Shown here piece after piece: positions 7,842-15,287 of a stretch of 26,801 bases of DNA. Made by a program: the position numbers and the translations under genes. The notes beneath the pieces were generated by a model, which did no database searches, was not told the origin of the DNA, and saw only the letters and a program-made list of their open reading frames with translations. The DNA is from Proteromonas lacertae. Taxonomy: Eukaryota. Every line of letters starts with the position of its first letter. Position 1 is the first letter of the stretch. The DNA lies in the NCBI GenBank assembly GCA_002245135.1, contig NGBS01001178.1, positions 124,001 to 150,801 on the forward strand. The letters are read 5' to 3'.

Positions 7842-10800
7842 ATGGAATCATCAGATTTCTTAACTTATAGCGATCTAAATAAAATTAGACTACATGAAGC
7901 TAAAGTCATAAAAGGCAAAGCTTTCTGTTATTGCTATAATCCTGTTATTTTAATTAGAGATTGCTTCATTCGTATTTACTGTGAAATGAAGAGAATAATT
8001 ATAGAGAATAAGGGATCTAAATATCAAAAATGCTTTTTAGTGTATGGCAATAACCAAATAGGTAAGACAACATTCAGCTGTTTTCTAGCATATTGTTTCA
8101 ACAAAGATAAAGATTTCAGGGAATATAATATAGTGTTTTTCTGTGATCCTGTAAAAGATACACGAATATATTATTTTCGAACAGCTTATGGTGAAATGTA
8201 TTACAAAACAACATATCTGCCAAATACAAAGAGAAAAACACTAATAATTAGTGACAATAAACCCATTAACGAAGATGACTACAGTAGTGCTGAGATAGTG
8301 ATTATGATATCTTCACCAGATGCAAAAAAATACAAAGTAATGAGTAATAAAAGAGCTCCAGTGCAATATTATATACTATCTCTCACAGAAGAGGACATTG
8401 AATTCAGTATAAGAATAGGAAATAAGTTGAGTGAAAATAAAATATACAACTTTAAAGATGTTAGTGAAATTGATGTAAATAATCAGCATTTACCATCATA
8501 TATACCACCATCATATAATCAAGAATATTATATATATGATACAGACAGAATAGATGTAATTCCAGAAAGAATAAAATTCAAATCAGAAGAAATAGAAAGA
8601 GAAATAATAATCAGATATTTCAACTCTCCAAAGAAATTTGTAGAGTTGTATGATATATTTGATGAAAATGAAAATGGATTTTTATTTGAAAGAATGTGTC
8701 ATATCATTTTTTCTAAATCAAAAGTTGATAAATTATCTAATAATAATGGCGAATTATATATGTCAAAGAAAATTTGTTATCATGATGATATGAGTAAATT
8801 TGTTAAATATCTTAACTCTAAGGGTAAGTATTATATTGAAAAAGATGATAGAAATGAAAATGTTAATACATTGTATGTTGATTTTAGTACAATTAAAGAT
8901 TTCCCAGCAATTGATGGCTGTATTATTAATAAATTCAATATTACAGCTGTTCAAATGACCATTTCAAATGATCATCCTACTTTAGATACAATAATTGTAT
9001 TTCTGAATGTATTTATATAATATAATATAATTGATTAGATGATATACAGCTATCATAAAGATAAGATGATAAAATATATATTAAATCATCCAACTATTAA
9101 TCCAACTGTTACTAATCTACTTGCTAGTCCATATCCAACAGAATCTTCATTTTATGATCTTGGTTATATACCAATTAATTTAAAGAGAAATATAATATCT
9201 GAAATGGATCAACGTAAAAGAATCCTATATGAAAGCTATGTATATTATAATATATTATTTCTATTATTATTTATAGTTCTTATTCAATGAACTTAGTTGT
9301 AGAAAAAACATAGATTCTAGTTTAATTAAAAACTATAGTGTTGAGAGACAGACTGAATTCTTGAGTATCATGGATGGCAATATGAAAAAGATAAACAAAT
9401 TAGAGCTTGAATTACTCCCTAAGAGTCAGGAAGTATTGAAATGTATTAAAAATAATCAAAAACTTACACAATATCAGAACGTAACTTTATTGGAAGAACG
9501 ATTAGATGCATTAGAAACACAAGTAAGTTTTTTTCGCAACACATTTGGAAGAATTAAAAGTAAAAATAAGTACATATGATAGAAAGTTGAAAGCATTAAC
9601 GAAAAAAATAGAACAATCAAAAGATGATAAGTCAGAAAATATCTCCAAAAAGCGAAAAAGGACAAATACAAAAAAAGGCACTGAGCTTATTGAAGGATAC
9701 AGAATAAAAATCAGATTATTCATTTTTAAGAATCTGGCAGATAAAGTTTATATTCAATTAGATGAATCAAAAGACTCAATACAAAAGTGTGTATATGAAT
9801 TATCTATAGTAAAAACAAAATTAATTAAGCAAAGAATCAATCAGTTAAAGGCTAATGTAGAAATAATAAAAAATGGCATATCAGAACAAATAAGTAACGT
9901 AGAGGTTATATTTTCTGACCATTTGCCATCACTAGCAACATCCGAATATTTAATTTTTATAGGAATATTACAAAATGAATTAAAAACTTTTGAAAAAGAA
10001 GTAAAAGAAATTCATAATCAATTAAAAGATTTATTCAATGAAAATCAACCCAATGAACCAACTCCTGAATTAGATTATTTAGATTCGTTGTTAGAAAATG
10101 GATTATCATATATATCAGAAAGGTTTATGGATATAATAAAATTACAAAGTAATCGTACAGAATTGCAAAGTGAATTAAAAGTATTATGTAATTTACAAGA
10201 GACATTGAAGAGTAATATATATATAATGAATAAAGTCTTCCAATCATATTTACAATGGGATCATTATGCATTTGAAAATGATCTTCAAACACAATTAACA
10301 TATTTCAGAACTTTCTTACAAAATTCATTTTTACAAGGTGCAACAATAACAGAAGTATTAGAAAATGAAGAAAATAATATAGAAGAAGAAGAAAGTATTA
10401 ATGAAGAAGAAAAACGGCGTAATACTGAAGATGACTCCTATAATATGGAAGAAGAAGAAAATACAGAAGAAGAAAACTCTTATAATATGGAAGAAGCTAT
10501 TCAAGATTCAATAGATTTATATAATGAATTTGTTTTTTTACAACATTTATTTCAATTTATTAATATATATGATCTTGAAGAAGCAAATGAGTTAGTGAAA
10601 TGTGAAATAAATTCAAAGTTGTTACATGATCTGGATGACTATTTAATCGATGTTATATATAATGACTTAGATGATAATAAAAAAATAGAAATGAAACAAA
10701 GAATCATTGATGTATATAAAATGTATTATTATTATTACTATAGGCAATTGGCAAGGAAATTCAACCAATTTATGCTACTACCAATAATAAATTGAAAAAT

Positions 10801-13800: not shown

Positions 13801-15287
13801 AGAGATTTAGTGAAGCAAGATACTAAAAAGATAGCAATATGTCCAAAAAATGTAAAAATAGCAATAGAAAAATGTGATAGAGAATTAAGAGTTGACATAC
13901 AAAAGGATGCATATGAATTACTACAGTTACTATTAAATAATCTCAATAATGAAGCCAACAAACTATTTTTAGTAGTATTTGATAATAAAATAAAATGTAA
14001 AACAAAATTTAAACCAAAAGTACATGATTTTTTTTTTGGTTTATCAGTTAAAGTTCCTGATAATGTAAAGGATGGTGTTAAGTTAGAAAATTGTCTTAAT
14101 TCTTGTAAAAAAATAATACAAACCCCCAAAATATTAATAATTCATTTGAACAGATTTGGTAATATGAATAAAGAGATACACACAGTTGTGGATATTTATG
14201 ATGTATTAGATTTAACAAGTTATGTAAAAAGTATATTAATATATATTAATATATTATATTTTAAATAGATGGAGAAAAGAAAGTATATGATTTGATAGGA
14301 ATGTCAAGTTACAGTTTCTCAATGCATCATTACATTGCTATATGTAAATCAACTCATGATAATAAATGGTTTATATTTGATGATGATGAAGTAATGAATG
14401 AATCTGATATAGAGAATAAGAATGAGAAATATTCTGATTTTCTTCCATACATATTATTTTATCAGTTAAGAGAAGAAGGAGAAAACATGATGGATGAAGA
14501 AAATGATGATGAAGATGATGATGAAGAAGGTGATGAAAATGATGATGAAGAAGGTGATGAAAATGATGATAAAGATGAAGGTATAATATTTAAAATACCA
14601 ATAGGCGATACATGTGGTATTGAGAGAAAAGATAGTAATAATTGCTACATTAACTCCACTCTTCAATGTTTTACCCATTTAGAACCATTTCGAGATTTCT
14701 ACTTGAGAAATAAATCATTTTCTAATAATTTAGAAAATAAATTTTCTGATTTATTTCTTAACATATGTATAAAAAGTAATAATACAATAAAGCAGAATAG
14801 TAGTATATTTATAGAATTTAAAAATGCTTTAAGACCAATATTAGATATTGATCAACAACAAGATACATCGGAATTTGTAGATTTACTAATAGATAATATC
14901 AATGAAATCAAAAACCTATCTTATAAAATATATGAAAAATATGAAAATTTGAATAATATTTCATTTGAAGAAATAAAACAAGTTTCAGTTATTGAGATTA
15001 GAAAATGTGGTGATGAAAAGAAAAATGCAAAAGAAAATTCAAATGAATCTCTTACACTTAATATTATTAACGAATATAAAGAATTGGCTGTGGATAATTA
15101 TATTTATGAATTAAAAGGAATGACATGTTATTATGCTAATCATTATATTGCTATATGTAAATCAACTCAGGATAAAGAATGGTATATATTTAATGATGAT
15201 AAAATAAAACCTACATCTGTAATAAAAAAGAAAAAATATTATCAGAATTTTTCCCCTAATTTATTGTTTTATCAGTTGAGGGAATGA
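7842..15287 (+). CDS. Giant (~2,420 aa) Crinkler/RHS-type conflict protein: NTPase-REase, helical linker, second NTPase, pseudo-USP, USP; three homopolymer frameshifts (errors or recent pseudogenisation)
   Basis: Introns 8997(or 9009)-9038, 9240-9276, 10712-10743, 11659-11693, 14231-14268. Single-base indels in T7 (9528-9534), A5 (11140-11144) and A6 (11931-11936). Walker A GNNQIGKT (8046-8069) and GNPGCGKT (12118-12141), SPD motifs, GFLFER..FPAIDG..VQMTIS..HP, two USP Cys/His boxes. Confidence 0.75.
14517..14570 (+). repeat. Exact 24-nt tandem repeat (2.25 copies) encoding acidic linker DDEEGDEN between the two USP domains
   Basis: gatgatgaagaaggtgatgaaaat at 14517-14540 and 14541-14564, then gatgat. 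Confidence 0.9.

What the first reader, a model, noticed from the sequence alone, without database searches (positions are those of the whole stretch)
7842..15287. Hidden ~2,420-aa fusion: Crinkler-type NTPase-nuclease modules joined to tandem deubiquitinases
Seen: eight separate ORFs collapse into one frame using five canonical tiny introns and three 1-nt homopolymer corrections (7446-184+1 = 7263 nt = 2421 codons). Known: the IRxCY/F..GxxGxGKT..SP..GxxPR NTPase followed by GxLFE..FPxID..QxT nuclease is the CR-NTPase/CR-REase module of Crinkler/RHS effectors. Inference: a CR protein with no evident N-terminal ubiquitin-like header but carrying two C-terminal USP domains is an architecture I do not recognise. 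It suggests an intracellular conflict or immune protein coupling nucleotide sensing, DNA cleavage and ubiquitin removal, located 4 kb from an endogenous virus.
Basis: partly seen in the sequence, partly recalled or inferred. Interest (0 to 1): 0.88.

Follow-up and report, generated by a model that had tools for sequence, protein, structure and literature searches.

The report
Split-labour Crinkler modules fused to deubiquitinases
A 7.4-kb protist locus encodes two complementary Crinkler-type modules (one keeps the nuclease residues, the other the ATPase residues) followed by two shrunken deubiquitinase domains; it likely makes, or recently made, one self-protecting DNA-cutting protein, but three frame breaks remain unresolved.

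Summary
Largely confirmed, with corrections. Nine (not eight) + strand ORFs tile 7842-15287. Five junctions are typical host introns; three are frame breaks that no reads could test.

The core needs no correction: one 778-codon ORF holds a CR-type NTPase, a dead nuclease fold and USP-A, and one intron adds USP-B. Seven relatives bridge break 3. None covers breaks 1-2.

New here: the two modules belong to sister clades with complementary losses. Type N keeps the nuclease E/H/D/QxT residues and lacks the GxxPR arginine; type A is the reverse. Relative P0030 carries both types in one ORF.

The USPs look weak. USP-A has Ser at the catalytic Cys; USP-B keeps the triad but lacks the oxyanion Asn and about 115 residues. 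None of 152 relatives scanned has a USP, though many are exon fragments.

Closest analogue: Wolbachia CifB (live and dead nucleases plus a 'guardian' deubiquitinase). CR proteins with Ulp1 peptidases are already reported. No link to the nearby Polinton-like element was found.

Odds: about 50% intact gene with assembly indels, 35% recent pseudogene, 15% separate genes. New variant of a known kind.

The parts
7842..9008 (+). Exon 1: module 1 (type N), CR-type NTPase plus restriction-endonuclease-fold nuclease; no header domain
   Evidence: ORF; Atlas 0.96; hhalign of its family against Crinkler-header protein P0114, probability 98.4
8046..8069 (+). Module 1 Walker A (GxxxxGKT); the GxxPR motif is absent from this module
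8688..8975 (+). Module 1 nuclease core: E283, H287, D358, T373, H378 invariant and Q371 nearly invariant in 11 aligned sequences
9009..9038 (+). Intron 1 (30 nt; alternative in-frame donor 8997); position shared with relatives
9039..9239 (+). Exon 2, tail of module 1
   Evidence: codon bias; weak match to P0027
9240..9276 (+). Intron 2 (37 nt)
9277..11658 (+). Linker of about 780 codons, Lys/Glu-rich with acidic repeats and two KKRK motifs; no family and no relative found; holds intron 3 and breaks 1 and 2
9527..9579 (+). Frame break 1 (ORF overlap zone with a homopolymer run); unresolved
10712..10743 (+). Intron 3 (32 nt)
11142..11184 (+). Frame break 2 (ORF overlap zone ending at or beside homopolymer runs); unresolved
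11659..11693 (+). Intron 4 (35 nt); P0003 reads through an intron-like stretch at the same place
11694..13400 (+). Module 2 (type A): IRxxY strand (11798), Walker A (12118), SP, GNVPR (12553), then a nuclease-like region without FPxxD or QxT
11932..11941 (+). Frame break 3, inside module 2; continuous in 7 relatives
13633..14475 (+). USP-A: Ser at the catalytic Cys position, His box after intron 5, Cys-to-His span about 210 aa
14231..14268 (+). Intron 5 (38 nt), needed to complete USP-A
14493..14590 (+). Acidic repeat spacer between the USPs
14610..15287 (+). USP-B: Cys 14643, His 15141 and the third residue present; oxyanion Asn not conserved; Cys-to-His span 166 aa against about 281 in USP2; His box 79% identical in DNA to USP-A's

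Best explanation
The locus encodes two Crinkler/RHS-type NTPase-nuclease modules with complementary losses followed by two reduced USP domains, and it likely works as one unsecreted nuclear protein in which module 2 would supply the ATP switch, module 1 would cut DNA, and the USP pair would shield the protein from ubiquitin-driven destruction. Shown: the domains, their order, the introns, the motif losses, the uninterrupted module 2 + USP-A frame. Inferred steps: (1) the three frame breaks are long-read indel errors; (2) module 2 binds and hydrolyses NTP and, with its dead nuclease fold, helps hold DNA, as dead REases are proposed to do in CifB; (3) module 1 is the blade, licensed by contact with module 2; (4) USP-A (Ser) binds ubiquitin without cutting and finger-less USP-B trims chains, the 'guardian' role proposed for CifB deubiquitinases; (5) the target is DNA inside its own cell (mobile elements, or host DNA in a selfish-element mode), since there is no header, signal peptide or membrane segment.
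For: Continuous host-like coding and five typical introns. No in-frame stop in about 2,420 codons and three homopolymer-linked breaks, against 6 stops and 1 shift in two decayed neighbours (Fisher p 0.033, hand-counted lesions). Seven relatives match both sides of break 3 in one ORF. Tree: type N clade (10 rows, SH-aLRT 99) and type A clade (10 rows, 98); P0030 has one half in each. GxxPR absent in 9 of 9 full type N rows, present in 10 of 10 type A rows; nuclease D present in 9 of 9 type N rows and absent in the 5 of 10 type A rows long enough to judge. The nearest relative of each module (P0022, P0003) lies on a 4,788-nt contig, suggesting one shared locus (not verified). Complex prediction for module 1 with module 2: weak support, score 0.37, best of 3 controls 0.00, runs agree in at least 44% of contacts, partner pLDDT at least 54; the mark was reached by 51 of 78 solved and 2 of 108 mismatched pairs, but at 0.60 or under by only 5 of 78 solved and all 4 passing mismatches of 180. 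Precedent: PMC11342252 section 12; a Crinkler-like protein countered by ubiquitination, PMC12957317.
Against: Breaks 1 and 2 are covered by no relative. Both USPs are degenerate, and both lack the Gly before the catalytic His. Module 1 has a gap of about 15 residues where relatives keep a GG motif. 0 of 152 relatives carry a USP, and P0003, P0004 and P0012 end shortly after the module. The neighbours on both sides are damaged (truncated XPB, decayed integrase). No activity, expression or target was measured.
Confidence: 0.4

Rival explanations
1. Same architecture, but this copy is a recent pseudogene. A mobile CR gene that had picked up and duplicated a host USP landed beside or in an XPB copy and is decaying; the breaks are real slippage mutations and the USP changes are decay.
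For: The neighbouring XPB begins near human residue 266 with at most about 60 further codons upstream, and has an in-frame stop and a frame break. A decayed integrase and a decayed coiled-coil gene lie within 4 kb. Both USPs are eroded. Decayed copies are common among Crinkler-like selfish genes (PMC12957317 Discussion).
Against: No in-frame stops, all nuclease residues of module 1 and NTPase motifs of module 2 kept, strong codon bias. The pPolB gene in the same window also shows frame shifts rather than stops, which suggests indel errors in the assembly.
Confidence: 0.33
2. Two or three adjacent genes: a type N gene ending at 9579, and a type A-USP gene starting later; or unusual introns bridge the breaks.
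For: No relative spans breaks 1-2. Non-consensus GT-AG candidates exist, such as 9560-9593 and 11885-11937. Most relatives are recorded as single modules.
Against: The ORFs overlap, leaving no intergenic space. 182 codons before the first Met of ORF 9527-10795 show full codon bias (0 of 300 shuffles). The best alternative introns end in AAG or have 20% or more GC, unlike 10 of 10 reference introns. Single-module records are gene calls that stop at introns.
Confidence: 0.12
3. Dedicated antiviral effector aimed at the Polinton-like element 4 kb away.
For: A pPolB (phrog_1907 E 6.4e-05; 25% identity to a viral contig polymerase) and an rve integrase lie at 22.4-26.8 kb. CR proteins are suggested to have arisen against invasive DNA (PMC5289972 passages).
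Against: Only proximity. No shared repeats or terminal repeats, no PADLOC hit for the three window pieces scanned, no relative on viral contigs. A mobile-element-rich region explains co-location equally well.
Confidence: 0.08
4. Exported effector delivered into another organism, as oomycete CRNs are.
For: Family membership; distant hits P0114 and P0142 carry the Crinkler header. Some CR proteins have atypical headers.
Against: No PF20147 hit, about 35 residues before the NTPase, no room for a header exon (about 165 nt to the XPB remnant), highest 19-residue hydropathy 1.18.
Confidence: 0.07

Closest known systems
CR (Crinkler/RHS-type) NTPase + REase effectors (Zhang et al. 2016, known here only through PMC5289972 and PMC11342252)
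   Same: P-loop NTPase followed by a helical region and a restriction-endonuclease fold; IRxCY, GxxxxGK, SP, GxxPR, E..H, FPxxD, QxT motifs as in P0114 and P0032.
   Different: No header; two modules in tandem with complementary motif losses; USP (PF00443) tail. The review lists trypsin, zincin and Ulp1-like peptidases as CR C-terminal domains, not USP.
Wolbachia CifB/CidB/CinB (PMC11342252)
   Same: Tandem active and inactive REase domains related to CR-REases, with accreted deubiquitinases proposed as guardians or co-effectors.
   Different: CifB has four REases, no NTPase, Ulp1/OTU/PL-OTU rather than USP ('USP' occurs 0 times in the main text), a CifA partner and a bacterial host. Analogy, not membership.
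AACRNL (PMC12957317)
   Same: Header-degenerate Crinkler-like gene acting inside its own host near transposons, opposed by ubiquitination and proteasomal decay.
   Different: Its active domain is an ADP-ribosyltransferase; it has no USP in the parts I read and occurs in animals.
Finger-less or finger-truncated USPs (TssM, CYLD; PMC10719079)
   Same: A USP fold can stay active with the Fingers reduced or absent.
   Different: USP-B is closest to USP2/USP4-type sequences and also lacks the oxyanion Asn; no replacement binding loop was identified.

Membership tests
CR NTPase-REase effectors | CR-type P-loop NTPase (profile similarity) | tested here: met
   hhalign to P0114: probability 98.4 (module 1 family) and 96.6 (module 2 family); profile search retrieves 2 PF20147 and 2 PF07999 proteins among 147 scanned; Atlas 0.94-0.96. 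Direct Pfam hit only E 0.018 to RHSP.
CR NTPase-REase effectors | Complete NTPase motif set including GxxPR | tested here: met
   Met by module 2 only; module 1 lacks GxxPR.
CR NTPase-REase effectors | REase catalytic residues E..H, D, QxT | tested here: met
   Met by module 1 only; FPxxD and QxT absent in module 2.
CR NTPase-REase effectors | REase fold by structure | tested here: inconclusive
   Models had mean pLDDT 39 and 47; Foldseek no hit at E 0.001; VIA rows cover only residues 1-123, RecA/P-loop-like, best Z 7.6.
Canonical Crinkler (CRN) | N-terminal ubiquitin-like LxLFLAK header | tested here: not met
   No PF20147 at E 0.1; no room upstream.
CR NTPase-REase effectors | Assignment to a numbered CR-NTPase/CR-REase clade | not testable with these tools
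   The defining paper and its profiles are not held.
USP deubiquitinases (PF00443) | Cys box and His box homology | tested here: met
USP deubiquitinases (PF00443) | Catalytic Cys-His-Asn/Asp triad in USP-A | tested here: not met
   Ser aligns with the catalytic Cys of USP4/USP15.
USP deubiquitinases (PF00443) | Triad, oxyanion Asn and Fingers in USP-B | tested here: inconclusive
   Triad present; oxyanion Asn and about 115 residues missing by alignment to USP2. Activity untested.
CifB | Four tandem REases, CifA partner, Ulp1/OTU deubiquitinase | tested here: not met
   Two NTPase-linked modules and USP domains instead (definition).

The most novel reading that the evidence does not exclude
A protist lineage has split the CR NTPase-nuclease unit into an obligate heterotypic pair (ATPase-live/nuclease-dead plus nuclease-live/arginine-less) and, in this copy, armed it with a pseudo-USP plus finger-less USP pair. 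It would be a eukaryotic, independently built counterpart of Wolbachia CifB: an ATP-gated DNA toxin that removes its own ubiquitin, acting as a selfish drive element or as defence against integrated viruses.
Probability: 0.2. Interest if true: 0.85.

Novelty: new variant of a known kind. Interest (0 to 1): 0.55.

Why it matters
It suggests that nuclease-plus-deubiquitinase coupling arose again, in a eukaryote and with a different deubiquitinase family, which gives a second test case for the untested 'guardian' idea. The complementary split of catalytic motifs between two CR clades offers a direct way to ask how the NTPase controls the nuclease in CR effectors, an open point for a family that includes crop-pathogen CRNs and trypanosome RHS proteins.

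Tried and rejected
No whole genome was held, so paralogues could not be counted.

Locus scans for module 2 found nothing in metagenome contigs or viral contigs, nor for USP-B in viral contigs. A search for longer fused relatives (731-2085 aa) returned only P0003 among 7,107 candidates (weak evidence). AlphaFold models from 3-4 sequence alignments were poor and the fold searches uninformative for the nuclease.

I first took the frame break in XPB as a control for assembly error and dropped it, because that XPB is also truncated and has an in-frame stop. A reassigned stop code was rejected: thousands of codons in long ORFs hold no TAA/TAG, and genes end in TAA, TAG or TGA. No terminal repeats flank the gene. 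No XPB N-terminal piece was found on the far side. The first codon test had one training exon out of frame and was repeated. The careful tree did not finish; the quick tree is quoted (36 rows chosen by me, the other hits left out).

Literature searches for the fusion: searches listed 7, 3, 4, 0 and 1 papers; none of those I opened describes CR + USP. The defining 2016 paper and its supplements were not held and may list this architecture. Earlier scan notes: none.

Full report
Setting. The window is AT-rich (22-34% GC) eukaryotic DNA in the standard code with 25-42 nt introns. Host genes (WD40, EME1/MUS81-like, XPB, EF-hand) lie to the left. A decayed integrase, a decayed coiled-coil gene and a Polinton-like element lie to the right. 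I did not determine the lineage; 'protist' is my inference from gene density and intron size. No genome or reads were available.

Gene structure. Nine stop-free + strand ORFs tile 7827-15287. At five of eight junctions the best candidate is a GTAT...TAG intron with 0-10% GC, like 10 of 10 reference introns from neighbouring genes. Two relatives end by running into an intron at the position of donor 9009, so I prefer it to 8997. All ten segments scored have host codon bias in the proposed frame, including 182 codons upstream of the first Met of the 422-codon ORF. Three junctions remain frame breaks. Each overlap zone holds an A/T run of 5 or more (joint chance 0.028).

Error or decay. The locus has 0 in-frame stops and 3 shifts. 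Two clearly decayed neighbours have 6 stops and 1 shift by my count (Fisher p 0.033). The pPolB gene shows several shifts across its translated frames. This leans towards indel errors in a long-read assembly. Against it, XPB next door is 5'-truncated, with a stop and a shift, so the region is not pristine. Break 3 lies inside a domain: 7 of 156 proteins tested match both sides in a single ORF. No relative covers the linker with breaks 1 and 2. My odds are 50% intact gene, 35% recent pseudogene, 15% separate genes or unusual splicing. The fusion of module 2's NTPase core to USP-A lies in one 778-codon ORF and needs no assumption; USP-B is added by an intron that USP-A needs for its His box.

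The modules. Pfam barely sees them (RHSP E 0.018). The Atlas places both near Crinkler/RHS clusters (0.94-0.96; a lead, with PF07999 on 13% of the named cluster). Sequence searches gave five unnamed Logan relatives. A profile of both modules found 167 proteins at E 0.001, 150 listed. Among 147 scanned, 2 carry the Crinkler header and 2 RHSP. Family profiles align to P0114 with probabilities 98.4 and 96.6.

Complementary split. A quick IQ-TREE of 36 rows gives a type N clade (module 1, eight relatives, C-half of P0030; SH-aLRT 99) and a type A clade (module 2, eight relatives, N-half of P0030; 98). GxxPR is absent in 9 of 9 full type N rows and present in 10 of 10 type A rows. The nuclease Asp is present in 9 of 9 type N rows and QxT in 8 of 9. 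Both are absent in all type A rows, of which only 5 of 10 are long enough to judge. P0025, P0026, P0032 and P0114 keep both sets, the likely ancestral state. P0030 carries type A then type N in one 1,041-aa ORF, the reverse of the window's order. P0022 and P0003, nearest to modules 1 and 2, are each recorded on a 4,788-nt contig, the only exact cross-cluster match among the lengths listed; that they share a contig is unverified. That GxxPR is a sensor-2-like arginine is recalled, not tested. A complex prediction gave weak support (0.37 against 0.00 for the best of 3 controls; such low passes are more often wrong than right).

The USPs. They arose by tandem duplication (97 nt at 79% identity). 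USP-A has Ser where USP4 and USP15 have the catalytic Cys. USP-B keeps Cys, His and the third residue, but its Cys-to-His span is 166 against about 281 in USP2, and the oxyanion Asn is not conserved (the Asn's role is established knowledge). Finger-less USPs can be active (PMC10719079, listing and passages). I put USP-B activity near even odds. None of 152 relatives scanned has PF00443, but most are gene calls cut at introns or contig ends, so this shows rarity on record, not uniqueness.

Mechanism. See Best explanation. There is no header, signal or membrane segment, and two KKRK motifs lie in the linker, so an own-nucleus role is likeliest. Whether it is selfish or defensive cannot be told.

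Literature. PMC11342252 (abstract, passages, section 12): CifB has alternating active and inactive REases related to CR-REase7 and accretes Ulp1/OTU deubiquitinases as possible guardians. PMC5289972 (passages): NTPase + REase is over a quarter of CR C-termini, and Ulp1-like peptidase is a known CR domain. PMC12957317 (abstract, Discussion): a header-less Crinkler-like selfish gene is countered by ubiquitination. PMC7217449 (passages): no such fusion. Searches showed no CR + USP report among the papers opened. The 2016 defining paper and its supplements were not available.

Verdict. A real and unusual architecture, a new variant of a known kind. The complementary two-clade split is the best-supported new element. 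Interest 0.55.

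Noticed in passing
window 5757-7680 (-): XPB/ERCC3 gene lacking its N-terminal domain, with an in-frame stop near 7466 and a frame break near 6718; it starts about 165 nt from the CR gene, head to head. Possibly a copy broken by the CR gene's arrival, or an assembly join.
   Followed up: partly
window 19343-26801: Polinton-like element: protein-primed DNA polymerase B with several frame shifts, rve integrase at 22382-23239, several ORFs without family. 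No capsid gene was identified in the window.
   Followed up: partly
window 15943-17599 (-): Intron-containing integrase gene (rve and H2C2 zinc finger) with in-frame stops at 17245 and 16642; a decayed transposon 650 nt from the CR gene.
   Followed up: partly
window 17900-19100 (-): Decayed coiled-coil gene with many in-frame stops.
   Followed up: partly
window 19160-19270: GC-richer non-coding stretch just before the element's first ORF; may be part of its terminal repeat.
   Followed up: no
P0030 (protein): 1,041-aa relative with type A and type N modules in one ORF, in the reverse order to the window.
   Followed up: partly
window 1-1284 (+): 3' part of a multi-pass membrane protein with a long low-complexity tail, resembling a family 3 GPCR by recall; no Pfam hit.
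   Followed up: no
L001 28-4323: Viral contig with a 1,431-aa pPolB, the only viral relative found for the window's polymerase N-terminus (25% identity).
   Followed up: no
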